From Sphaerodactylus townsendi (Eukaryota): a stretch of DNA of 64,000 nucleotides. Location: assembly GCF_021028975.2 (NCBI RefSeq), contig NC_059439.1, positions 24,056,001 through 24,120,000 on the forward strand, given 5' to 3'. The notes under the pieces were generated by a model, which was not told the DNA's origin, made no database searches, and worked only from the letters and a program-made list of their open reading frames with translations. Below, one piece after another: positions 4,974-60,937 of the stretch (position 1 is the stretch's first letter; the number at the start of each line of letters is the position of its first letter). The position numbers and the translations under genes are program-made.

Positions 4974-5191
4974 ATGCTGATCTTAGTGATGGTGGCGTTA
5001 CTGGTTTTCAGTCGTGTTGTGGGAAAGGTTCATGTTTCTCAATGCGTTGCTGTGGATAGCTCCCCCATTCTTCGTATGTATCTTCAGCCAGGAGATCTTA
5101 TCATTGGTGCTATTGTATCTCAGACACTTTTTGGCTCAGATCCTAAAGACTTCAAGTGCCAATCACATGGGATGCTATCTGAAGAGTTTGT
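4974..5191 (+). CDS. V2R gene B exon 1 (signal peptide, start of Venus flytrap domain)
   Basis: ATG MLILVMVALLVFS hydrophobic leader, YLQPGDLIIGAI motif, donor GT|gtacgt; 218 bp, phase 2. Confidence 0.9.
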
Positions 5192-5544
5192 GTACGTAAT
5201 TTTTGACTTCCTTTCGTTGTACCATGTGCATACTTTATACTTTCTACCTGAATAATCATATAGGTTACCTTCACATGTTTTCGTTTCCATTCCTAGAGAT
5301 TGGGTCAGACCCAGATCAGCACCACCATTACACGCAGAGACATATCAAAAGAGGAAGGATGTCAGGCAACCACAGGACTTTCTCTAATAGAAGAGGTTTC
5401 TCATGATCATAGGCAACTGAGGAGTTGGTTGTTGTGATAGTTTGGTCCCCAAGTATGTAGTGCTTCGAACAGGAATGCTTAATGCTACATTGAATAAATC
5501 AAAATTATCCATCACAACTTCTGCCCATTGGACTGTCTATTATT

Positions 5545-6660
5545 CATCATTCAATTTATTACATTAATATTAATGCTCTATTAATCAATATGGTTATATT
5601 GACAGAGTTCAAGCTTGATATGTTTGTTTAATCCAGTTTTCATTTGAATATACATAGATCCCTATCGCTATATTTTAAAATATGATCTTTTCTGGAAAAA
5701 GCAGCAAACTGCACAAAAATTGATTTTAAATGTTCCTTGTCCTCCCCTTAACCTTTAGTTAAACCATAAACTAAAGGCATTTGTTTAATGTTACACTAAA
5801 AAAATATACTCATAGCCCTAAAAGATGGAAAATGCAGAGCAGATGTTGTATCAGTTTTATAAATAAAGTGCCCAGCTAGAATTTTCTTGGCACAGGATAG
5901 CACCAGTACTAGTCTTGAATTTAAACAGTTGAATGGTTTGGAACTGTTTGTTCAATAAGAGCGGCTTAAGTTGCAGACATGTAAGGTGAATAATATCTTC
6001 TTAACAGTAGAGAACTGTATTGGAGAATTCTTTGTTCTTTTTTGAGGAATATCCTAGTCCTTTCTTTGATAATTGTGACTTCTGACCATTAGGTTATCTA
6101 TTTTTTGTCTGCTTCATCCAATCTATTACATTAATATTAATGTTCTATTAATCAATATGGTTATAATGAAAGGCTTCACACTGGATATGTTTAACTAATT
6201 CAGTTGTCTGTTGAATATTCATAGATCGCTATCTCTGTATTTTTTAATGTTGTCTTGTCTGGAAAAAGCAGGAAACTACACAAAAACTGATTTTAAATAT
6301 TCCTTGTCCTCCCTTTAACCTTAAGTTAAACCATAAATTATAGGCATTTATTTAATGTTAAACTAAAAAAAATACTCATAGCCCTAAAAGATGGTAAAAT
6401 GCAGAGCAGCTGTTGAATCAGTTTTACCAATAAAGTGCCCACATAGAGTTGCCTCGGCACAGGATAGCACCAATGCCGGTCTTGAATCTAAAACAGTTGA
6501 ACTGTCTGAAACTGTTGAATAACAGTGGCTTAGGTTGCAGAAGTGTATGGTGAATAATATCCTCTTAATATCCGAGAGCTGTATTAGAGAATGCTGCTCT
6601 TGATCATTGTTCTTCTTGAAGAGTATCCTAGTCCTTTCTTTGATGATTGTGAACCAGCCT
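5545..6660 (+). repeat. Diverged ~570-bp tandem duplication in gene B intron 1
   Basis: ~5550-6085 and ~6120-6655 are colinear; gene C intron 1 has a single copy. Confidence 0.85.
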
Positions 6661-7170
6661 GTTTTCTGAATTTGGGGATGTTGGCTTCATAACAGCGGCA
6701 TTTATCCAATTACAGATCTGCGTGTGTGGTGGCCTCCCCTCCTCAGTCTCCTCAGAAAGGGATGGATAGGTGGAGTGGGATATGTGTTATTATCAGTGAT
6801 TTGAGGTTCTGTCAGATGCACCTTCTGTGTATGTGTATGTTCACTGCTACACATAGTCCCCCCCCCACCTCCTAGCCTTCTTGCTGCGTCAGGAATTTGA
6901 TCTGTTTTGGTTATGAATTCTTTTTGTCATTTTCTTGAAGGAAAAATTTATTGAAGGAAAAAAGATGTTTATTTGCTAAGAAAGAGCTGTGCTTTCCAGA
7001 AGCACAGACACATAAATATCAGAAACAAGTTAAAAGAAACAGAACCAAGGGCTAAGGTCTATGAAATACTGGGTTTTCCTTCCTTGGAAAGGAATGGACA
7101 TAATCAAACTAAAGCTTCGCATTTGAGTCTTGTTGAAGCAGCCTTCATGTTTGCTTATTTACTTGCCTTT

Positions 7171-7321
7171 GACCCCTTCCGCACATGCAGAATAATGCAC
7201 TTTCAATCCACTTTCAGAATTGTTCGCAAGTGGATTTTCCTATTCCACACAGTAAAATCCAGGTCCAACATGCATTCAAAGTGGATTGAAAGTGCATTAT
7301 TCTGCATGTGTGGAAGGAGCC
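7171..7321. mobile_element. Related Harbinger-type MITE subfamily
   Basis: Same TIR type, longer internal inverted repeat, ttt/ttt TSD. Confidence 0.7.
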
Positions 7322-7507
7322 TTTGCCTTTCACATCCTTCCAGAGCGGGTTTGAAAACTTTTAATTCTTTCCTTCACAGTGAGTAGGGTTTCTTTTTGCC
7401 TGCCCTGAATTATGCTTGAGTTACACATATGCTGCCCTGTACCTTTATGCATTTGTATCAAGTCAGGTATCAGCCATGTTTATTGCCCCAGTCAAAAACT
7501 AGTCTCT

Positions 7508-7648
7508 GGCTCATTCCGCGCATGCAGAATAATGCACGTTCAAACTGCTTTCAGTGCTCTTTGAAGCTGTGTGGAATAGCAAAATCCACTTGCAAACAGT
7601 TGTGAAAGTGGTTTGAAAATGCATTATTTTGCGTGTGCGGAAGGGGCC
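7508..7648. mobile_element. 141-bp PIF/Harbinger-type MITE
   Basis: TIR GGC(T/C)C(A/C)TTCCGCAC; the family has about 10 copies in this window, most with 3-bp TSDs. Confidence 0.8.
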
Positions 7649-8117
7649 TATGTTTCCGTTACTTGGCAGATGGGAAAACAGTCCACCTTATCCTGCCTTT
7701 TTGTTTCCACAAAGGGGAACCAATTTATCTCATTCAAGGGTTTTATTTGCAGAATTCCAGTGTGAAAGCATATTTAAATCTGATGCTGGGGATGAGAGCC
7801 ATGATATAATTGAAAGAGATGACTCATTTCTCTAATCTGGGGTAATAACAATGTTGTCAGTCAAGCTTACGCCAAATATGAACCATGTTCAGGTATTACA
7901 TACATACTTACTCCAAATATAAACCATATTCAGGTATTACATACAACCATATTCAGGTATTACATACATAGCTAAGGCTTGAATAATAATTGTCACACAA
8001 ATGTTGTCTGGAGATTTCACAGTGCAATATCAATAAAAGCAGTTATATGGCTTAGTGGATTTATTTTTTCAAAGGAAAGAATATCTTTATGGTGCAGCCT
8101 ATAAATATTTATTGCAG

Positions 8118-8409
8118 GTTCATGCCTCAGAACTACCAGCATATCCTCGCCCTAGCATTTGCTGTCAAAGAGATCAATGAAAATCCACACATCTTGCTAA
8201 ATCTCACCCTGGGGTTCCATATCTATGACAGCAATTTGAATCCAAGAGTGACATATCGTGCAGCCCTGCAACATATTTCCCCAAGGAACAGATTTGTCCC
8301 CAACTACAGGTGTCATATCCAGGACAATGTACAAGCAGTTCTTGAGGATATTAATTCACATGATTCAAAACTTGTTCAATATCTTTTTAGCATTTACAAG
8401 ATTCCACAG
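8118..8409 (+). CDS. V2R gene B exon 2
   Basis: ttgcag|G ... CAG|gtagg; 292 bp; NYQHILALAFAVKEINENP, NLTLGFHIYDS, PNYRC, KIPQ. Confidence 0.93.
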
Positions 8410-9417
8410 GTAGGCAATTGGGGTAGGATGCACAATTTAACCAGTTATTTACCTGCACCATTACACCTTTTTTACATTATCATGGTCTGATTGAATCTGT
8501 TTTATTAATAAGAAAATATGGTGTAAGCATTCCTTGAAAGATTGTTTCCTGCCTTCATACTTCGTCATGCTAATATTCCTCTCTGGAGCAGTTCAGAGTG
8601 TATGTTATGAAGAGAACTGTATTTTTTTAAAAAATAAAGCATTCCTTAAATATATTATCAAGATTAATTTAAATACTGTATGTAGTTCATACAACAGTAG
8701 ATACATTTCTAAATTGATCAAAACTCTCTGAATGGTTCACTTTTACACTAGTAGCCTATTCTGTTTTAAATCATGTAACAATGGTAATTAACAGTGCCTC
8801 AGTGCATTAACATCAGCCATTTTCTGGAGATGTGAAAGTAGTTTTTTTGAAAGCAGTGTGTTGTCCTAGCACACTACTAAAGATATTACAGAAGTAGCAT
8901 CACGTCCAACAATGAGCTCCCACTTCAACAGAGTCATGAAGCAGAATTATAATGAGGAATACTTTGCATTCCTCTTGCCTTCCAACCCCCATAAGGGGAA
9001 GTAGGATGTACCCATTGCTTACACTGTGTATGAATACTCATATTCTAGCTTGCTGTGGTTGCTAAAGGAAATAAGAAGCAAGAAACTGCTAATAGTTCTG
9101 GGATGTGGTGTTTTGCCCTTTCTCCCACACTGAGAAAGGCCATCATCTGCTCAATAGTATTGCTACTAGGTTGCGGGGGGGGGATCTCTGTTTCTGCCTA
9201 CTTGGGACATTAAGACATGGGAGCCTTCGTCAAGGGAGTCCACCATTTTGTCAGATTTATAGCATCTCCTTTGAACATTCCCAGACTGGCAATATGGTCC
9301 TGAATTCCATGGTAATGTACAGAAGTAGCTGTGAGTTTAGCCTGGTTTAATTGGTCCTGCAAAAAATTATTGTTCATTTGCTGGCTTAAAGAAAAGCTAC
9401 CTCTACCTTTCATGATA

Positions 9418-9418
<1 letters not shown>

Positions 9419-9457
<39 letters not shown>

Positions 9458-9478
9458 TATATGCCTGCCTGCCTGCCT
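9419..9478. repeat. (TCTG)n / (GCCT)n microsatellite
   Basis: Direct reading. Confidence 0.9.
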
Positions 9479-9586
9479 GTTGCATTAGATTATGTTCTGA
9501 AACATTTCTTATAGTCCAGATAAGAAATAATTAAATATAACACCGCACCAAACAGTACCTGTTTCATTTTTAAAATCTTTCTTTAG

Positions 9587-10435
9587 CTTTTGATTGGTTG
9601 TGCTCCTCTGATGATGGATAACACACAGCTCCCATTCCTGTATAACATGGACCTGAATAAAACCCAGAAGTACCTGGGAATTCTTCAATTGCTTCTGCAT
9701 TTCAACTGGACATGGATTGGATTCTTTACTCTGATTGGTGTGAATTTAGAATGGTTCATGCAGACCATGTTCCCCATCTTTTCCCAGCTTGGCATCTGTT
9801 TTGCCTTCATGTATTCACAGTCCAGTATGGAAGGCAATGATTATAAGAAAGGCTATCTGAAAAGCTTTTCAAAACTGTATGAAAAAATGATGGGGAGCAG
9901 CGCCAATGTAATTATCTTTGACGGACAAGTTCGTGGCTTTATAGTTGCCAGATGTTTGATAGAATTAACACACATTAAATACATGATGCCAAAACCGAAA
10001 GGCAAAGTATGGATTGTAACAGCACACATGGAATTAAAAACATATAACAATATGCTAAGCTTGGATGTTCAAATCTTCCATGGAATGATATCAGTTGCCC
10101 TTCACTCGAATGAACTTCAGGGATTCCAAGACTTTTTTAAGAGCAGAAAGCCATCCAGTGCGGAGGGAGATGCATTTCTCAAGGACTTCTGGTCATACAC
10201 ATTTCATTGTGGATTTCCAAATTTGGTTCTGGGCAATGTGCATCAGGCTAATTGCACAGGAGATGAGACCCTGAAGGACCTTCCTGCATTAGAAATGAGC
10301 ATGACTGGCCACAGCTACAGCATCTACAATGCGATCTATGCAGTCGCTTATGCTTTGCAGGCTATGCATTCTTCAAAAGTTCAAGCAAGGATGCAAGGAG
10401 AGAGAAGGAAGTTGCTAAATCACCAACCCTGGCAG
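9587..10435 (+). CDS. V2R gene B exon 3
   Basis: ctttag|CTT ... CAG|gtagc; 849 bp open; LLLHFNWTWIG, SYSIYNAIYAVAYAL, QPWQ. Confidence 0.93.
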
Positions 10436-11143
10436 GTAGCACATTTCTTTTGTAATCTGGAAAGCAACCTTGTCACAGGCATTTGCAGCATTTCTGTTCT
10501 TTCTCCTACACTTGAAACAATTGTTTTATATGCATAATGGTGGAGATGAGGTTGACATCACAATAGTACTTCATCCCTGTGATATTTGTTTGTTTATTTG
10601 TTTGATTTCTTATGCCACCCACCTCCAGATGGCTCTGGATGGTTTACAATACATAACAGTTCCATAACATAAAAACAATCATATTGGCAGTGATGTACGT
10701 ACTACCTGTGAGAGAGTTAAAACTCTGAGGATACAGCAGCCAAACTACATGTTACCCCAGACCCCATTTATAAATTGCCATAAGGGTTCAATCCTCACAG
10801 CTTTTTTTGCATTTGAAAATGTGACATACCTGATTTGGCCCTCATGCCAACTTTTGAACCTCTAAACTTTTTCTCTAAGATGAAATTGGCAGGTGTTGGT
10901 TGGGCCCATGACTACTATAACATGTGGTAGAGACAACAATTACTTGGTCATCAGTAACATTCTTATATTTAAGTTCATTTCCTAGCTCCTTCATAGTTGC
11001 CCTCCCCAGTCTCAATCTCCTATATACCAAATATAGAACAATTTCAGTTTCTTCATCATGAGTCTTAAGGTTGTGTACAGTGAGTACTTTTCTCTTGACG
11101 TTGAACTGTAATCCTACTTCGTTGCTTTTTGTTTTAACTTTCA

Positions 11144-11515
11144 TTAGTAATCACCTGCAAAGAGGTAAGGGGAAACTATGGCGTAATCTATTACACTGTA
11201 GCCTCTGTTAGACAGATATTCCCCTGAGTATTTGAATTTACAGAGCCCATTTAAGTACATCATGTCACAAAATATCCATGTGTTGGCTAACTCCTTGCCT
11301 GCATAATTAACAAGGGGGCCTTTCGAATGCCTCAGTTGGGAAAAATTCCAAGGTAGATCTTCAGCATCTAAATCCAATCCCTCAATTAATGCCTGACCAT
11401 CTACTCCCACTCTAGCATTAAAATCGCCTACCAAAACAGTGTTATTGGAGGGAGAATTTTGTTTTATTTTTGCTATGTAATCCAGCATTTGCATCCATCT
11501 TGTATCCTTTTCCAC
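11144..11515 (-). mobile_element. LINE APE endonuclease fragment
   Basis: VLVGDFNARVG and SVIDYAIVS motifs. Confidence 0.75.
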
Positions 11516-11825
11516 TCATCAGTAGTGTGTGTGTGGGGGGGGCAGATAGACATTTCAAGTCTTCTATATCTTCCGCCAATAAGGTGATGCCATCTGTATA
11601 TTTCAAATTGTTGTTCATTCCACAAATATTCCCTCCACCATCATCTAAATCTAATCCAGCTTCAATGAGTGGGGCCAGGATTTTTGAACAATATGTGGTT
11701 GCCGCTGTGAGAGCACTGACGGGAGCTGGGCAGCATGTGCAGCTCTGGGTGGCAGTAAAAGAATGAAGGTGGATTGTTTTTTGGGGGGGGTGGAAACAGC
11801 TTCTGTGCCACTTTCTCTTGCTTCA

Positions 11826-12268
11826 GGCCTTTCCTCAAGACGTTTGGCGCTCCACGCCGCCAAGAGGCGCGGGAGGCGCAGGGCGAGTTCGCTCGCGATG
11901 CAAGTACGCTAATGGGAGAAGCGGAGGCCGGCGATGGCAGGCGGCTCAAGATGGAGTCGCTTCGTTCTTCCTTCAGCCGCATGCCACGCTGCCCTCCCAC
12001 CCCTGGAGGTCGGAGGACAGTGTGGGCGGGTTGCGACGCCTCGCAGGCTTAATTTGGTGAGGACACCGTAAGTGGGTGGGAGACAGCGTTCTGGCGGCGC
12101 TGGGTCGACCGCCAAGGAAGACGCCTTCAACAACAACCCTTTAAAGGGTTGTTGTTTAGGGCGGCTTGACGCCGCCCTGGGGGGAGGGAAGAAGCGTCAG
12201 GTCGCCACTGCTGCGTTGCCTTTTTTGGTGCCCCCAGGCCGTCGTAAAACGGCCATGCAGAAGCGGCC
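11826..12268. mobile_element. GC-rich Harbinger-like element
   Basis: GGCC ends, TSD tca/tca, 28-bp perfect palindrome at 12129-12156. Confidence 0.75.
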
Positions 12269-13398
12269 TCAGAGATTCTCTTAAAGGATTTTGGGGTGAG
12301 TGATTGGGGGACATGCCCAGCTCTGGGGTTGTTAGAAGTGCCCTCACCTCGAGTTGCAAAGGGAACCATGAGTGGTTGGTGCCCTGTGGAACCCATTTGC
12401 CATCCCAGGTGACCTCCATCCTGGCTCAGCCAGCTGGCTGATGCAAGGCAGAGGGGGGATACTGACAAGTGGGGTCTCCTGATATTTATCTGCTGACAGG
12501 GAGCTTGCCTGATAACTGGGTCTAAGCCCTTTGCTGTGTTAATGCTCTGAAAGCTGCTGTTGCAATAAAGCTGTGGCTGTTTCTCTCCAACTGAAGTGCT
12601 TCTTTGGTTATTCTGTGTTACTGGGTCACCCACTCCCCATTTTTCCTCTCTCCGTTAATCCCTGGCTCTGCAATCTTGTTAAGATTTTGATGGACTGTCT
12701 ATGTTTCGGAATAGCTCTTCTGGCATTCCATCTGCTCCTTGTGAAATGTTTCTCCCATTTGCTCTCAGTGCACCTTGCCTTGCACTTACAAAAACTGTAG
12801 ATTCTTCTTCAAAAGATTATTTTTGGAACTGGCTATTATAATTATTTGTGCTTCTGAGGTGCTGGAATGCTGCTTTTAGGCTTTTGATTCTGATTCTTTC
12901 ATTTCTTGCTTCTTGTTTGTCTTCGATAATTTTAAAAGCTTTATTAGTCACCTATGAAGGTTTTTCATTTCTCTTGGCTTCGGAAATAATCTTTGCACAT
13001 TCTTTCTTGATAATATCTCTGATCTCAAACCGTATTTCTTCTTGTTCTGGTTCACTTGAACTTAGTAATGCAAGTTCATCTGGAATGTTGCTTAAATTTT
13101 ATTTTGGCCAAATGAATCAATATGAAATATTTATTCTTTTTTTTTTGGTTGGGGAGACACTTGTCCTATAAAATCCAGCTATATGGGAAGAGGCAAATAG
13201 ACAAAGCATTGAAAAGTCACAAAGGTTTTCAGCTTCTTTGGCTTTCAGCTATCTCTCCTGACCATGTCTGTAGCCAAAGCAAGCTTCAATGGCGACAAGG
13301 AAGCCTGAAGGACATTTTACACAAAAGTCCAGCAGAACAGAGTACTGAGTATCACACAACAATGTAACGGAATGTGTAGCAAACAAATACTTCACATG

Positions 13399-13590
13399 TA
13401 TTGTCGAAGGCTTTCACTGCCGGAATATGTTTTGCGTTGTATTGAGCAAGGAAAGTGAATATTTCCTGATGCTGTATAGGCTGGCATCTTCAGAGGATCC
13501 TCTGAAGATGCCAGCCACAGATGCAGGCGAAACGTCAGGAGAGAATGCTGCTAAAATACGGCCATGCAGCCCGGAAACCACACAGCACCC
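13399..13590 (-). mobile_element. Penelope-like element fragment (inverted pLTR plus tail), gene B intron 3
   Basis: 14-bp TSD aaatacttcacatg (13385-13398 / 13591-13604); tail tattgtcgaaggctttcac; fold-back centre cagaggatcctctg. Confidence 0.8.
13498..13540 (+). ncRNA. Minimal type I hammerhead ribozyme motif (PLE-type)
   Basis: UCCU-CUGAAGA-U-GCC(loop)GGC-GAAA-CG-UC|AGGA; stem I UCCU/AGGA; palindromic ACGU replaces helix III; predicted cleavage after C13536. Confidence 0.7.
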
Positions 13591-13641
13591 AAATACTTCA
13601 CATGCTTTTCTATTTGTAGATTCTAAAATCTTAATCATGTT

Positions 13642-13782
13642 GGCCCCTTCCGCACATGCAGAATAATGCATTTTCAAACCACTTTCACAACTGTTTGCAA
13701 GTGAATTTTGCTATTCCGCACAGCTTCAAAGAGCATTGAAAGCAGTTTGAAAGTGCATTATTCTGCATGTGCGGAATGAGCC
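13642..13782. mobile_element. 141-bp Harbinger-type MITE
   Basis: Both TIRs present; TSD not evident. Confidence 0.8.
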
Positions 13783-14186
13783 ACTGATTCTTGAGTCTAA
13801 TCACCTTAGCATATGCTGTGACAAAACATCCAAAACAAGATAGCAGCTACAATAAACAATGTGTCAGTTTTAACTTGTGCAAATGTATAGCCAGTAGAGT
13901 CAGATACAATCTTCAGTCAAAGGCCTGCTGAAAAACAGCAGCCTTATATGTCTTTGGAAGAACTGCCAGCATGTTGTGAAAGGTGGGTCCTGCAACACAG
14001 TAAAGGATGGAACAATTGTCACAAATTTCACAGATCTCCTGAGACCTCATGTTTTCCATCAGAGCTTTGTTTCAATGCTTACACTTCTACCCCTCCTGAA
14101 ATTATACTGACATCTAAATGAAGCATCTAAGTGAAGCACACATTTCTCCTCCTACATACCAATCACTCACTCTCTCTCCACTCCTT

Positions 14187-14327
14187 GGCTCCTTCCGCAC
14201 ATGCAAAATAATGCATTTTCAAACCACTTTCACAACTGTTTGCAAGTGGATTTTGCCATTCCGCACAGCTTCAAAGAGCACTGAAAGCAGTTTGAAAGTG
14301 CATTATTCTGCATGTGGGGAATGAGCC
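14187..14327. mobile_element. 141-bp Harbinger-type MITE
   Basis: TIRs; TSD ctt/ctt. Confidence 0.85.
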
Positions 14328-14624
14328 CTTGTTTTTTTCATTCTCACTTATTTTTGATTGCAAGCTTCTCAGAGTGGGTGCACCATCATTGCAGTCATTA
14401 ACTTCAGTGTAGAACAATAGTGTTAAATATCTTTATTTACTGGACGACATCAATAAATACACTTGCCGTCCAGTTCAAAAGGCAATCACTTGTATTGTGC
14501 TGCTTACGACCATATTGAAATGATATCACTTTCTTAATTTCCTTCCATGCCATCTGACAAAATATTCCCCCTCCATTTAAATACAAGCCTGTTTGCTAAG
14601 TAGATTCAAGCCTGCATACACAGA

Positions 14625-14765
14625 GGCTCATTCCGCACACGCAGAACAATGCACTTTCGAGCTGCTTTCAGTGCTCTTTGAAGCTGTGCAGAATAGCAAA
14701 ATCCACTTGCAAACAGTTGTGAAAGTGGTTTGAAAATGCATTATTTTGCGTGTGTGGAAGGGCCC
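14625..14765. mobile_element. 141-bp Harbinger-type MITE
   Basis: TIRs; TSD aga/aga. Confidence 0.85.
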
Positions 14766-14895
14766 AGAGTGAAAAATAATGATATGCACCATCCTTTAAA
14801 AAGTCATATTCGTTAGTAGATTTAAATATAGGAAATGGTGGCTGTTGCTTTTGTTTTTGTAATAAAGAGGCAGACTTTTTTATTTTTCAATGTAG

Positions 14896-15123
14896 CTCCA
14901 TCACTTTTTGAGAAACATCTCATTTAACAACAGCGCTGGAGATAAGATTGTCTTTGATCACAATGGAGAATTGACAGCAGGACTTGACATTATCAACTGG
15001 GTAACATTTCCAAACCGATCTTTTGTTAGAGTGAAAGTGGGAAAGATCCACGCCCAGGCTCCTTTACAGCAAGCACTTCAGCTAGATGAAGAATCCATGG
15101 TATGGCACCCCCGATTTCACCAG
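14896..15123 (+). CDS. V2R gene B exon 4
   Basis: tgtag|CTC ... CAG|gtagg; 228 bp; LHHFLRNISFNNSAGD, DIINWVTFPN. Confidence 0.93.
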
Positions 15124-15276
15124 GTAGGACTGCAAACCAGCCTCTTTAGGATACAGGCTACTGTGGAATAGCAGGGTGTGTGGGTTCAGGGAGGATCTCT
15201 CATCATTGTTTGGAAACAACCAACAACTTATGGCATGATGTAAGCTCTTATAAGACATAAGAATTTCAAGCCATTG

Positions 15277-15504
15277 TATTGTCGAAGGCTTTCAAGGCCG
15301 GAATCACTGGGGTGCTGTGTGGTTTCCAGGCTGTATGTCCATGTTCTAGCAGCATTCTCTCCTGACGTTTCGCCTGCATCTGTGGCTGGCATCTGTGGCT
15401 GGATGCCAGATCCTCTGAAGATGCTAGCCACAGATGCAGGCGAAACGTCAGGAGAGAATGCTGCTAGAACATGGACATACAGCCCGGAAACCACACAGCA
15501 CCCC
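15277..15504 (-). mobile_element. Penelope-like fold-back element, gene B intron 4
   Basis: 14-bp TSD atttcaagccattg (15263-15276 / 15505-15518); inverted arms of ~85 bp. Confidence 0.85.
15411..15453 (+). ncRNA. Minimal type I hammerhead ribozyme motif
   Basis: tcct CTGAAGA t gct...ggc GAAA cg TC agga; stem II contains one G-U pair. Confidence 0.65.
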
Positions 15505-15551
15505 ATTTCAAGCCATTGTTCCAAGACTAAGGCTTGGTTCTTTTGGTTTAG

Positions 15552-15678
15552 GTACAACCTGTTTCTTTATGCAGTGAGAATTGCAGTCCTGGATATAGAA
15601 TAACAAAGAGGGAAGGGGAGCCCTTCTGCTGTTATAACTGCAGCCAATGTCCAGAAGGGACAATCTCTGATCATCAAG
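15552..15678 (+). CDS. V2R gene B exon 5 (cysteine-rich NCD3G domain)
   Basis: tttag|GTA ... G|gtaag; 127 bp; VQPVSLCSENCSPGY...GEPFCCYNCSQCPEGTISDHQ. Not in the ORF track; translated by hand. Confidence 0.92.
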
Positions 15679-16250
15679 GTAAGAGATGTACACTATAGAT
15701 TCAGATCTGTTGGCAATACACTTAGAGGAATGTGCCTATAACAGAAAGAAAATGTAAAACATAGAAAAGAGGATTAGATGACAAGTTACAACGAAACTGC
15801 GAGCTGGCAGCAAACATTATAGGCACATGGAATACACCACTCAGTTCCATACTGGTTTCTTATTCTAACACTGTATCAAGGAAGAATACACACTCAGCTG
15901 GCAATGCACAGTTGCCCTCTAATGTAGATGGCAGAAAAATGTACTGTATGTTGAGAGATGCAGAAAACCCAAATGAAAATAAGTTTACAAATAAAGTTTG
16001 CAATCCGATGGAGAACTCCTTTGAGTAACAAAACCCTCTTTTAAAAAATGTTTGACGATATTTCTCATTGTTTGCAATCAACTTGCAATCTGGCTGATGT
16101 TCTCCAGTATTAGATATTAGTTATGCAAAACGTATTCCAGCTGGTTTGTTTAATTTATGAACTGAGCTCAATTTCTATTAAGTTTAGTGCACAAATAAAT
16201 GAACAATATGGGCAGTTTGCTACACTTAAAAGACTCTTCTTCTTTTGCAG

Positions 16251-17152
16251 ATATGCCTGACTGTTTCCAATGCTCACTTGGACATTTTCCACACAAGAAC
16301 CAGAGCTATTGCATTCCCAAGATGATCACCTTCTTGTCTTATGAAGAACCTTTGGGAGCTGTTTGTCTTTTTGTTGCTCTGACTCTGTCTTTCACCACAG
16401 TCTTAGTACTTGGAATATTTATAAAGCACCACAGCACACCCATTGTGAAAGCCAACAACAGTAAGCTGACATACACTCTTCTCAGTGCACTTCTGCTCTG
16501 CTTCCTCTGTGCCCTGCTATTCATTCGCAAACCTGGAAAGATAATGTGTCTCCTTCGCCAAACTGCCTTTGGCATCATTTTCTCCATTGCAGTTTCTTCC
16601 GTGTTAGCAAAAACGATCACAGTGATTGTGGCTTTTATGGCCACGAAACCTGGAAGCCAGATGAGGAAATGGGTGGGGAAAAGGCTGTCTGTTTCCATTG
16701 TTCTTTCCTGCTCTTTGATTCAAGTTGGTATTTGTATCATTTGGCTAGTAAATTCTCCTCCTTTCCCAGATGTTGACATGAATTCAATGGCAGAAGAAGT
16801 TGTATTAGAATGTAATGATGCTTCTCCTACTATGTTTTACTGTGTCTTGGGCTATATGGGCCTCCTGGCTAGTGTGAGCTTCCTGGTGGCTTTCATTGCT
16901 AGGAAGCTACCCGACAGTTTCAATGAAGCCAAGTTCATCACTTTCAGCATGCTGATCTTTTGCACCGTTTGGTTATCCTTTGTTCCAGCCTACCTGAGTA
17001 TCAAAGGGAAATACATGGTGGCTGTTGAGATCTTCTCTATCTTAGCCTCCAGTGCTGGCTTACTGGGCTTTATCTTTTCCCCCAAATGCTACATTATTGT
17101 GCTTAGACCTGAACTGAATCACAGAGAGCAGCTAATAAGGAGAAATCAATGA
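16251..17152 (+). CDS. V2R gene B exon 6 (7TM); gene B intact, 871 aa
   Basis: ttttgcag|AT ATG; open to TGA; the six exons sum to 2616 nt. Confidence 0.95.
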
Positions 17153-20347: not shown

Positions 20348-20565
20348 ATGCTGATCTTAGTGATGGTGGCGTTACTGGTTTTCAGTCGTGTTGTGGGAAA
20401 GGTTCCTGTTTCTCAATGCGCTGCTGTGGATAGCTCCCCCATTCTTCGTATGTACCTTCAGCCAGGAGATCTTATCATTGGAGCCATTGTATCTCAGACA
20501 CTTATTGCCTCCATTCCGAATGACTTCAAGTGCCAATTACATGGGATGCTATATGAAGAGATTGT
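20348..20565 (+). CDS. V2R gene C exon 1 (orphan; no exons 2-6 before the next gene)
   Basis: 218 bp, 15 nt differences from B exon 1, donor gtatgt; followed by intron 1 homology and then the N gap. Confidence 0.8.
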
Positions 20566-21398
20566 GTATGTTAATTTAAGACTTCTTTTTGTTATACCAT
20601 GTGCACACTTTCTACTTTCTACCTGAATAATCATATAGGTTACCTTCACATGTTTTCGTTTCCATTCCTAGAGATTGGGTCAGACCCAGATCAGCATCAC
20701 CATTACATACGTCATTCAATTTATTACATTAATATTAATCAATATGATTATATTGACAGAGTTCAAGCTAGATAAGTTTGTTTAATCCAGTTTTCATTTG
20801 AATATACATAGATACCTATCTCTATATTTTTAAATATTCTTTTCTCTGGAAAAAGCAGTAAACTGCACAAAAATTGATTTTAAATGTTCCTTGCCCTTCC
20901 CTTAACCATTAGTTAAACCATAAACTAAAGGCATTTGTTTAATGTTACACTAAAAAAATATTCTCATAGCCCTAAAAGATGGTAAAATGCAGAGCAGATA
21001 TTGAATCAGTTTTATAAATAAAGTGCCCAGTTAGAATTTTCTTGGCACCGGATAGCACCAGTGCTGGTCTTGAATTTAAACAGTTGAATAGTCTGGAACT
21101 TTGTTCAATAAGAGTGGCTTAGGTTGCAGACATGTAAGGTGAACAATATCTTCTTAACAGCAGAGAACTGTATTGGAGAATTCTTTGTTCTTTGTTCATC
21201 CTTTCTTTGATAATTGTGACTCAGCCTGTTTCCTGAATTTGGGGATGTTGACTTCATAAAGTGGTATAAATCCATAATACAAAGCCTCCCCTCCTTAGTC
21301 TCATCAGAAAGGGATGGATGGGTGGGATGGGATATGTGTTTGTGTGGTCTGGAATCTCTGAGCCTTCCTCTACCACTTGTTATTGGGCAAGCCATTTC

Positions 21399-37725: not shown

Positions 37726-37913
37726 TGGGTGCTGTGTGGTTTCCGGGCTGTATGGCCGTGTTCTAGCAGCATTCTCTCCTGACGTTTCGCCTGCATCTGT
37801 GGCTGGCATCTTCAGAGGATCTGAAGATGCCAGCTTCTGTCCACAAGCCTTTACTAAGCAAACCGCCCTGAAGCACAAATATATCGATGCGGTCGTGAAA
37901 GCCTTTGACAATA
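37726..37913 (+). mobile_element. Penelope-like fold-back element
   Basis: 13-bp TSD cacttaatgtatt (37713-37725 / 37914-37926); tail gtgaaagcctttgacaata; one arm garbled. Confidence 0.8.
37777..37819 (-). ncRNA. Minimal type I hammerhead ribozyme motif
   Basis: Reverse complement is identical to the 13498-13540 motif. Confidence 0.65.
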
Positions 37914-38284
37914 CACTTAATGTATTAATTGTTTTTTTTTAAGCAGAGGTGCAGCATGGCCTGTGATTCTTGACTACAGGGTAGGAAACTCATGAGAAGA
38001 AGGTGTAGTTTGGGGACAGTCCAAATGCACAGATCCCACATGGTGTCCAAATGCTAGGATTACCACCACCAGGGTAGGAAAACTCCTGGTGAATTAGGGG
38101 TAAAGCAAGGTGGGTATGGACATTGGCGAGGGAGTAAATGGGAGTGGTGTGCAGAGCATGTTCTTGAAGAAGCCGTGTCCTAAGAGGAAATGATCTCCGT
38201 ACTTCACAATACAGGGGAAATTCCTGGGTAATTTTGGGCTCCACCTGAAGATTGCCAATCTGCTGAGAAAACAGCATTGCTCCC

Positions 38285-53845: not shown

Positions 53846-54066
53846 ATATTGTCGAAGGCTTTCACAGCCGGAATCACTTGGGTGCTGTGTGGTTTCCGGG
53901 CTGTATGGCCGTGTTCTAGCAGCATTCTCTCCTGATGTTTCGCCTGCATCTGTGGCTGGAATCTTCAGAGGATCCTCTGAAGATGCCAGCCACAGATGCA
54001 GGCGGAACGTCAGGAGAGAATGCTGCTAGAACACGGCCATACAGCCCGGAAACCACACAGCACCCA
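53846..54066 (-). mobile_element. Penelope-like fold-back element 3' of gene E
   Basis: 12-bp TSD agttccttcagt; near-perfect ~95-bp arms centred on GGATCC (53970-53975); empty site visible 3' of gene A (~2125); both hammerhead cores carry point changes. Confidence 0.85.
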
Positions 54067-55526
54067 AGTTCCTTCAGTGTTCCTCAAACAACAGAAAGAT
54101 AACATGGAAAAATGAGTGGAAAGGATATACCCCTACCAGAAACTGAAGTGTTAATCAAAAATATAAATTTTGTTGGTTTCAAATTGCTTTCACTAAAGTA
54201 AGGCACTTAAATCTTTCTTTCAAAAAAAGATGATTTCCATTTCTTTAATACTCAGTAGAAAAACTGCAACACATTTCTGCTTTTAACGGTTTAACTGTAC
54301 AATCCAGAGATTTCTCTCTGGATACAGCACTGTTTTCTGCCAGTGGATTTACCCTTCTTGGGGCACTTAGCCCAGCAGAAGGGCAAATCTGCTGGCATCC
54401 AGCCATTGTGGAATATTAGGACACACGGCAGTGGCACCCAGCTCTATGCTGGTGCTTTTCTGCCACCCCGACCTTTATCAGCAGGGTGGAGACAGGGTGA
54501 GGGTGCTCCAGTGGAGGAGGGATCAGATATGCACCATAATTTTCGCAGCATATATCCGCTTTCCATTATGAGGAATTCTAAGGCTTCCCGGGCTTGAGGA
54601 AAGCCCTTTGGAAAGGGAAGGTTTGTGCTGGAGTGGTGCCATCCCCAGCTGCCAAGCTATCCTGGATTTGGGTGAAATGCACCGTTGTGGAAATCTTTAG
54701 ACACATTTCCTTCACCTCCACCCCCCATGATTTTTGAGTTTATTCAAAATGAATTTCAAAAATGCTTGATCAGTGAGTTTAACAGAATAGGTTACTTTTC
54801 TGCATAGTCTCGTTGGTGAAATATTGTTGTAAGGGATCATGAATAATATTCTCTCTGAGCTGGGATTATTTCTATAAAGTGGATGAAAAAACATCATGAT
54901 AGTCATTTTTTTTAAAAAAAATGTTCAAGTGGGGCTATACAATTCTTATGATTCCATTCATAACCTGCGGTCATTGTTATGCATTCTTTATGAAAATAAA
55001 ATGTAATGGATCATTAATTATGAGGACTTTGAATGAAATGGCTGGTCTGTTCTTTGTATTGTAGGAATGACTGGCACTAAAAGATTAAAAGAAAATATTT
55101 TTTCCTGTCTCTTTTTCTCTGTCACATACACACACAAACACACGTGCAAACACTGGTCAAAAAAATAGGAAAGGAACAGTTCACAGTTCACTGGAACAGC
55201 AATGGTGAAAATATGTCTAACGTCCTCTTTCAAATAAATAAGATAATTTTTCCTGGTGCTAGTTTAGATTTGCTGGGTTTTCCAAGAAAAATAACCATCC
55301 TGAAGACCTGTTCTCTAGGGATGTGCAGCCAGAAATGTACTAATCCAGATTTGATCCTAAGATACCTATTCATAAAGCTACACATTTTGCAACAGTAAAC
55401 ATACTTTTAGTCTGGTGGTTGTACTTTCACCTTACTTGATTGCATCCACCAGAATATTTCTTCAAATGGAAATATTTCTATTGGCAGACCATGTTTACTC
55501 CCCTTTTCTAGAAGCACTTGGGGAAC

Positions 55527-60225: not shown

Positions 60226-60240
60226 ATTTACATACATCAC

Positions 60241-60277
60241 AACCAGTTGAATCCAGCCGTGAAAGCCTTCGACAATA
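60241..60277 (+). mobile_element. Penelope-like tail-only micro-insertion
   Basis: ccgtgaaagccttcgacaata flanked by TSD catacatcac. Confidence 0.7.
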
Positions 60278-60937
60278 CATACATCACTATCTTTGTATTT
60301 TTTAATCTAACGTGGAATATATGGGTGCAGTGAGAAGGAGCACACTGGTATGGAGTGGCATCTTTCAAACCTTGTAGATGGTTTCTGGTACCTCAGGGCA
60401 GAGAGATGAAGCTTGGCACCTCTTTGCACTTAGTGATTGTTGCAGGCTGTGAGAAAGAAGGCTAAAAGAGGCACAAGCAAACTTGGGAGCCAGAGGGGAA
60501 CTTCCCCCTTCTCCCAAATCTCCAATCCATAGCAGAGGCCATTCTCAAAAGTATAAGGTCTTTTGAATAAGTAGTGATATAGACCAATGACTTAATGATC
60601 TGAACTAGTAAACAAACCAAGGTGAACCCTTACATGCTTATCTTGTGTGAAAGGATATTTAAATCTGATACTGGAGATGGGAGGCACAATATAATTGAAG
60701 GAGATTATACATTTCTGAATCCTGGGGCAATAACAATGTTGTCAGTCATGGTTACTAGAAATATGAACCATCATTCAGGTATTACATGCACAGCTAAGCC
60801 TTGAATAATAATTGCCACACAAATGTCGGCTGGAGGTTTCACAATACAATAGTAATCAAAAAGTTTTATGGCTTAGTGATGTTAATTTTGCAAACAAAGA
60901 ATATGTGCATGATGAAAACTTTAAATCTTTGTTGTAG

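What the first reader, a model, noticed from the sequence alone, without database searches (positions are those of the whole stretch)
13399..15504. Two sense-oriented minimal hammerhead ribozyme motifs inside introns of an intact V2R gene
Seen: 13498-13540 and 15411-15453 read UCCU-CUGAAGA-U-GC(C/U)..GGC-GAAA-CG-UC-AGGA on the same strand as the gene B pre-mRNA and flank exon 4. Established: Penelope-like elements carry minimal type I hammerheads whose helix III is reduced to a palindromic tetranucleotide (here ACGU), and these cleave best as dimers. Inference: the two copies, 1.9 kb apart in one transcript, could pair through ACGU and cut either side of exon 4, dampening expression or releasing an exon-4-containing RNA. 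Against this, the antisense arm of each element could sequester the motif, although that arm is damaged in both copies.
Basis: partly seen in the sequence, partly recalled or inferred. Interest (0 to 1): 0.72.

Follow-up and report, generated by a model that had tools for sequence, protein, structure and literature searches.

The report
Jumping-gene leftovers carrying silenced hammerhead ribozymes
The two self-cutting RNA motifs in this lizard smell-receptor gene are real, but they are two of over eleven thousand copies left by a known jumping gene, are predicted to be folded shut by their own mirror-image arms, and are likely inert passengers rather than a control switch.

Summary
Observation confirmed; interpretation not supported. 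Both motifs (13498-13540, 15411-15453) are complete minimal type I hammerheads, sense to an intact 871-codon V2R gene and flanking exon 4. They are the ribozyme of a Poseidon-type Penelope-like retrotransposon. The core occurs 11,336 times in this genome (control 0). Start codon, cut site, arm ends and tail match the Anolis Poseidon element, and one copy sits behind a broken RT/GIY-YIG frame. The two copies are separate recent insertions, each with its own 15-bp target duplication. The closest paralogues are empty at both sites. About 70 same-strand pairs within 2 kb are expected by chance. The antisense arms are not disabled: a 17-bp stem covers copy 1's CUGAAGA core, and an 87-bp hairpin covers most of copy 2. 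The predicted penalties are 38 and 62 kcal/mol, and 125 for the dimer across exon 4. The Anolis ribozyme cuts only with the element's protein. Core positions decay neutrally across copies. Expression and cleavage in vivo were not tested. The scan's notes held no earlier record of this element.

The parts
4974..17152 (+). V2R gene B, six exons, intact 871-codon frame
13384..13398 (.). Copy 1 left target-site duplication (15 bp)
   Evidence: empty site in 2 of 2 paralogues with both flanks alignable
13399..13426 (-). Copy 1 tail end of the antisense arm (ends near +117 of the element's reading frame)
13427..13478 (.). 52-nt filler of unknown origin replacing the middle of copy 1's antisense arm
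   Evidence: only match in the genome search is itself
13479..13495 (-). Copy 1 inner antisense arm; pairs with 13500-13516 over the catalytic core, GATC at the fold-back centre
13496..13590 (+). Copy 1 sense arm (-11 to about +84 of the element's reading frame), 3 of 95 letters off the family majority
13498..13540 (+). Minimal hammerhead 1, predicted cut after 13536
13590..13604 (.). Copy 1 right target-site duplication
14896..15123 (+). V2R gene B exon 4 (228 nt)
15263..15277 (.). Copy 2 left target-site duplication (15 bp)
   Evidence: empty site in 4 of 4 aligned close paralogues
15277..15394 (-). Copy 2 antisense arm with tail (to +117); 15308-15394 pairs with 15419-15505
15409..15504 (+). 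Copy 2 sense arm (-11 to about +84), 3 of 95 letters off the family majority
15411..15453 (+). Minimal hammerhead 2, predicted cut after 15449
15505..15519 (.). Copy 2 right target-site duplication; the last 47 nt of intron 4 with the polypyrimidine tract lie outside the element

Best explanation
The two motifs are the hammerhead of a high-copy Poseidon-type Penelope-like retrotransposon, carried into introns 3 and 4 of one V2R gene by two separate insertions, and they are predicted to be folded shut in the pre-mRNA and likely have no effect on the gene. Shown here: copy number, own target duplications, empty paralogue sites, arm ends, the link to an RT-bearing frame, neutral decay across copies. 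Inferred from the Anolis element (PMC11167929): the element's protein nicks AT-rich DNA on both strands and starts reverse transcription inside its own RNA at about +117 or about +84. Short, 5'-truncated cDNAs therefore always hold the hammerhead, which overlaps the start codon. Two such cDNAs joined head to head give the palindromic mini-insertion with one arm on each strand. Predicted: when gene B is transcribed, each antisense arm is made before its sense arm and pairs with it, so no hammerhead forms, and both introns are spliced out normally.
For: Copy number: 11,336 intact-core copies, one per 160 kb. Anatomy: ATG at the start of stem II, cut 26 nt after the start codon, arm ends at about +84 and +117, as described for PAc. 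The PAc RNA printed in that paper's Fig. S1 matches the family arm at 74 of 89 letters without gaps (compared by eye). [quoted passage not shown] Independent origin: separate 15-bp duplications, different private variants, empty paralogue sites. Folding: penalties of 38 and 62 kcal/mol; 46 of 80 and 62 of 80 other copies have lower penalties; the double hammerhead across exon 4 costs 125 kcal/mol. Decay: core non-CpG changes 9 of 595 against 145 of 5510 elsewhere (Fisher p 0.13), and core G12 is lost in 9 of 59 arms. Literature: the PAc ribozyme does not cleave without protein, and no RNA-seq reads end at its cut site; single minimal hammerheads showed no cleavage and dimers only low cleavage (PMC4209133).
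Against: Both copies do keep all 12 core letters (but so do 30 of 47 arms not chosen for the motif, these two included). Core non-CpG positions change slightly less than the rest, not significantly. Gene B is the only one of 25 exon-4 hits in 464 kb with arms on both sides of exon 4. The region has 6 intact motifs against about 3 expected (P 0.07, counted with a looser pattern). Nearest-neighbour energies ignore tertiary contacts, proteins and helicases. Pfam GIY-YIG did not score on the L154 pieces. Expression, splicing and cleavage of gene B were not measured.
Confidence: 0.9

Rival explanations
1. One reading: the two hammerheads pair through ACGU across exon 4 and cut the pre-mRNA, dampening gene B or releasing an exon-4 RNA.
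For: Both cores are intact, sense and flank one exon. Metazoan minimal hammerheads are built to work as dimers. A split hammerhead acts in mammalian Clec2 genes (review passage).
Against: The double-hammerhead fold is 125 kcal/mol above the best fold of 13350-15560. Even the isolated pair scored -9.9 against -27.5 kcal/mol for the two monomers' best folds. Dimer rates are described as very low, and PAc needs protein. About 70 such pairs are expected by chance, and paralogues lack the insertions.
Confidence: 0.02
2. The insertions matter as double-stranded RNA, not as ribozymes. Copy 2's 87-bp hairpin, or pairing of copy 1's sense arm with copy 2's antisense arm across exon 4, slightly shifts splicing (skipping or circularising the 228-nt in-frame exon 4) or attracts A-to-I editing.
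For: Inverted pair 13506-13599 / 15301-15394, 94 nt, 89% complementary, brackets exon 4. Copy 2's hairpin ends 47 nt before the exon 5 acceptor.
Against: In the 2.2-kb fold, copy 2's antisense arm pairs wholly with its own sense arm, not with copy 1. Splice signals are intact. Stronger inverted repeats of another element lie wholly inside intron 3.
Confidence: 0.05
3. Protein-assisted cleavage in trans: where the autonomous element is expressed, its protein refolds intronic copies and triggers their ribozyme, nicking host pre-mRNAs as a side effect.
For: The PAc hammerhead is a protein-assisted ribozyme. 29 of 80 sampled copies have a folding penalty under 10 kcal/mol.
Against: PAc activity on its RNA needed the first 172 nt of the frame (measured for insertion, not for ribozyme cleavage). 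The sense arms here stop at about +84, and these two copies are among the sequestered ones. No intact source element was found (one broken copy seen; not searched exhaustively).
Confidence: 0.03

Closest known systems
Poseidon Penelope-like element of Anolis carolinensis (PAc; PMC11167929, main text parts 1-2, passages, supplements 1-3 read; the sequence file could not be read)
   Same: Start codon at the start of stem II, cut 26 nt after the start codon, insertion ends at the two internal reverse-transcription starts with a 30-40-nt tail; 74 of 89 letters alike by eye with the RNA in Fig. S1; RT frame with a C-terminal endonuclease-like motif upstream of the arm in L154.
   Different: A different lizard genome and subfamily. 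The copies here are 190-230-bp two-armed remnants without promoter or coding region, sitting in host introns.
Minimal hammerheads of metazoan Penelope-like elements (PMC4209133, parts 1-2 of 4 and supplement passages read)
   Same: Type I, no helix III beyond a palindromic core, extra letter between positions 9 and 10.1, G10.1-C11.1 pair, 4-bp helix I. The paper already reports thousands per genome, mostly as single truncated copies and as opposite-strand pairs 100-700 bp apart.
   Different: The helix II stem has only 3 contiguous pairs, shorter than the 7-8 given for Schistosoma; copies here are young and uniform.
Inverted pLTR insertions with a one-sided tail (PMC8557442 and PMC3846280, passages read)
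   Same: Head-to-head inverted 5'-truncated copy, tail often at one end only, target duplication.
   Different: None of kind; here the one-sided rule is nearly strict (43 of 45).
Intronic hammerheads of amniote genes and the split Clec2 hammerhead (review PMC6765202, passages; ultraconservation recalled)
   Same: A hammerhead inside a host transcript.
   Different: Those are single-locus and conserved. These are recent, gene-specific copies of a repeat and absent from close paralogues.

Membership tests
Minimal hammerhead of metazoan Penelope-like elements | Core CUGANGA, GAAA, UH in type I order | tested here: met
Minimal hammerhead of metazoan Penelope-like elements | Extra letter between 9 and 10.1, G10.1-C11.1 pair, palindromic 15.2-16.2 | tested here: met
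   U, G-C and C-G in both copies; features
Minimal hammerhead of metazoan Penelope-like elements | Lies in the pLTR of an element with RT and endonuclease | tested here: met
   same arm directly after the broken frame in L154
Minimal hammerhead of metazoan Penelope-like elements | Self-cleavage as a dimer or with protein | not testable with these tools
   needs an assay; folding predicts sequestration in context
Penelope/Poseidon clade | Start codon at stem II, cut 26 nt after it | tested here: met
   cut after +29 counted from the A of ATG
Penelope/Poseidon clade | Ends at two reverse-transcription starts 30-40 nt apart; inverted copy; target duplication | tested here: met
   ends at about +84 and +117; 53 of 80 two-armed; 30 of 53 with an exact duplication of 9 bp or more; 15 bp for both gene B copies
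Penelope/Poseidon clade | RT domain | tested here: met
   RVT_1 34.7 bits over cut-off 29.6 in L154
Penelope/Poseidon clade | C-terminal GIY-YIG endonuclease | tested here: inconclusive
   motif seen by eye, split by a stop; no Pfam hit at E 0.01
Penelope/Poseidon clade | Placement in an RT tree | not tested
   no reference proteins at hand; assignment rests on arm similarity and anatomy
Conserved regulatory intronic hammerheads | Single locus, conserved in paralogues or orthologues | tested here: not met
   11,336 copies; empty sites in close paralogues; orthologues not resolved
Conserved regulatory intronic hammerheads | Active fold accessible in the host transcript | tested here: not met
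   helix I and II pair probabilities 0.0 in context; prediction only

The most novel reading that the evidence does not exclude
Two independent transposon insertions have by chance built a working double hammerhead around exon 4 of one V2R gene, and it cuts the pre-mRNA once helicases or the element's protein open the antisense hairpins: the first host gene tuned by a pair of Penelope ribozymes.
Probability: 0.02. Interest if true: 0.7.

Novelty: new member of a known kind. Interest (0 to 1): 0.1.

Why it matters
As it stands it is ordinary: two of more than eleven thousand hammerhead-bearing remnants. The practical lesson is that hammerhead motifs in lizard introns are the background, so orientation and closeness are no evidence of function. 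If the pair did cut, it would show that Penelope ribozymes can be co-opted to tune a host chemoreceptor gene. A side result could be tested with the existing in vitro system: 43 of 45 two-armed insertions use opposite reverse-transcription starts at their two ends.

Tried and rejected
Rfam scan of the window: 0 hits at gathering score; uninformative, since these motifs lack helix III. Genome search with Pfam GIY-YIG: 3 matches, none with this arm beside it; one looked like another Penelope-type frame and one like a host nuclease gene (by eye). Sequencing runs: no RNA holder listed, which is no evidence either way. No RNA reads were laid, so expression, splicing and cut ends stay open. DNA contigs of 4 runs laid on 13150-16450 were swamped by repeat copies and did not settle presence or absence in relatives. 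The primary paper on dimer cleavage of these ribozymes (Lunse et al.) is not held; I rely on the review's passages. One supplement of PMC4209133 and the sequence file of PMC11167929 could not be read; they may bear on how well this exact family is already described. A search for hammerhead + intron + Penelope + lizard returned only PMC11167929. Look-ups in the scan's notes by sequence and by words found nothing; by place, two unrelated elements. Rejected: one duplication making both copies (different target duplications and variants); selection on the core (p 0.13); enrichment of sense motifs in the V2R cluster (3 plus, 3 minus in 464 kb). The idea that copy 1's filler was copied from elsewhere in the genome found no source.

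Full report
Observation. Each has a 4-bp helix I, the CUGAAGA core, an extra U, a 3-bp helix II stem closing G10.1-C11.1, GAAA, palindromic ACGU and a predicted cut after C13536 or C15449. Gene B is on the same strand. It assembles from six exons with GT-AG at 5 of 5 introns into one frame of 871 codons, and its exons hit ANF_receptor and 7tm_3. Copy 1 lies in intron 3 and copy 2 in intron 4. Rfam has no hit in the window.

What the motifs are part of. Each motif is in the right arm of a short two-armed insertion. Copy 1 spans 13399-13590 and copy 2 about 15277-15504. Each is flanked by its own exact 15-bp duplication (13384/13590; 15263/15505). Three more pieces of the same repeat lie in the window (37727-37915, 53847-54071, about 60240-60280). 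In the whole 1.81-Gb genome, a 41-nt exact pattern occurs 9,340 times and a 35-nt intact-core pattern 11,336 times (5,612 forward, 5,724 reverse). The reversed-pattern controls give 0. That is one intact core per 160 kb.

Family. In locus L154 the same arm follows a broken frame whose pieces give an RVT_1 hit above cut-off and, by eye, a C-terminal GIY-YIG-like motif that Pfam did not score. The anatomy matches the Poseidon element of Anolis carolinensis (PMC11167929). In that element the reading frame starts at stem II and the cut lies 26 nt after the start codon. Reverse transcription starts at +111-118 and at a second site, with a 30-40-nt tail between the two starts. Here the ATG lies in the motif, the cut falls after +29, and arms end at about +84 or +117. 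The RNA printed in that paper's Fig. S1 agrees with the family arm at 74 of 89 letters without gaps (by eye). Inverted copies with a one-sided tail are a described signature of these elements. The label 'lizard' rests on this likeness and on two unrelated notes of the scan. I built no RT tree.

History in gene B. The two copies carry different private variants and different target duplications, each 3 of 95 letters off the family majority. Copy 2's site is empty in 4 of 4 aligned close paralogues. For copy 1, 2 of 6 paralogous introns keep both flanks alignable, and both are empty. Among 25 exon-4 hits in 464 kb of the V2R cluster, only gene B has arms on both sides of exon 4. Six motifs in the region are intact, 3 on each strand, against about 3 expected (P 0.07, looser pattern). 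So both copies arrived separately and recently, after gene B split from its neighbours.

Is the arrangement more than chance? With 11,336 cores spread evenly, about 71 have a same-strand neighbour within 2 kb. The first 100 listed hits already include a same-strand pair 1.2 kb apart (not fetched) and one 63 nt apart. Sense orientation costs nothing: 53 of 80 sampled insertions are two-armed, with one arm on each strand. The sample was the first 80 places listed on contig 1, of which two are a segmental duplicate. Intactness is common too. Of 47 arms not chosen for the motif (gene B's two included), 30 keep all 12 core letters. Core non-CpG positions changed in 9 of 595 cells against 145 of 5510 elsewhere (p 0.13), and the essential G12, in a CpG, in 9 of 59. 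This is neutral decay of a young family.

Could they fold? Copy 2's is 87 nt and 98% complementary and covers helix II, GAAA, the cut site and helix I's 3' strand. Copy 1's is mostly replaced by a 52-nt filler, but the remaining perfect 17-bp stem covers CUGAAGA. Both antisense arms are transcribed first. Predicted helix I and II pair probabilities in context are 0.0. The penalty for the hammerhead fold is 38 kcal/mol for copy 1 and 62 for copy 2; 46 of 80 and 62 of 80 sampled copies have lower penalties, 29 of them under 10 (some of those have a broken helix I). Forcing the double hammerhead across exon 4 costs 125 kcal/mol in a fold of 13350-15560. These are nearest-neighbour predictions and ignore proteins.

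Could they cut if folded? A single minimal hammerhead showed no cleavage, and dimers only low cleavage (PMC4209133; review). The Anolis ribozyme cleaves only with the element's protein, and no RNA-seq reads began or ended at its cut site. Activity of that protein on its RNA needed the first 172 nt of the frame (measured for insertion), whereas the sense arms here stop at about +84.

Mechanism. Most likely (0.9) the element's protein nicked AT-rich intron DNA and primed short cDNAs inside its own RNA. Two such cDNAs were joined head to head, twice, in gene B (inferred from PAc). The hammerhead came along because it overlaps the start codon, just upstream of the priming sites (shown by anatomy). 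In the pre-mRNA each arm pairs with its mirror arm (predicted), and the introns are removed normally (inferred: splice signals are intact and the last 47 nt of intron 4 lie outside the element). Rivals: the dimer cut around exon 4 (0.02), an effect of the double-stranded RNA on splicing or editing (0.05), and protein-triggered cleavage in trans (0.03).

Limits. No RNA holder was listed and no RNA reads were laid, so expression, splicing and cut ends are untested. DNA contigs did not resolve relatives.

Verdict. A real but ordinary feature: new copies of a known kind, interest 0.1. A side result is that of 45 two-armed insertions with both ends classifiable, 43 have one long and one short end, 2 have two long ends and none has two short ends (8 more had truncated ends). 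The literature says only that the tail is often one-sided, and in vitro no strand difference in start site was seen. The near-strict rule suggests coordinated priming of the two strands.

Noticed in passing
L074-L153 (80 insertions on contig 1): Of 45 two-armed insertions with both ends classifiable, 43 end at about +117 on one side and about +84 on the other; 2 are long/long and 0 short/short. This suggests the two DNA strands are primed from the two different start sites in a coordinated way, perhaps by a protein dimer. One-sided tails are known qualitatively.
   Followed up: partly
window 13427-13478 and about 37837-37890: Two insertions have about 50 nt of unrelated filler between the tail and the inner arm. 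Copy 1's filler matches only itself in the genome search, and neither filler recurs in the 464-kb region. Possibly non-templated synthesis or a template jump.
   Followed up: partly
window 53847-54071: A complete two-armed copy about 230 bp after gene E's stop codon, possibly in its 3' UTR; the motif is mutated in both arms.
   Followed up: partly
L154:497-2703 (- strand): A 2.2-kb 5'-truncated, broken Poseidon-type copy with RT and endonuclease pieces ahead of the arm; no intact source element was seen.
   Followed up: partly
L118 (G000:C1:6511758 and 6511821): Two same-strand cores 63 nt apart within one insertion, a far better dimer geometry than gene B's pair; helix I of the anchored copy is broken.
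   Followed up: no
G000:C15 about 24024200-24024500 (31.8 kb upstream of the window): Another V2R gene has an intron 3 insertion with intact motifs on both strands.
   Followed up: no
window 13641-13786, 14186-14332, 14620-14766: Three copies of a 146-bp palindromic element in intron 3 of gene B, absent from the paralogue alignments and very high-copy in DNA runs.
   Followed up: no
L033: A different Penelope-type frame (315 aa open, cysteine-rich linker before GIY-YIG; Neptune-like, label recalled) without this arm nearby.
   Followed up: no
window 20348-20566: An orphan V2R exon 1 with no following exons before the next gene.
   Followed up: no
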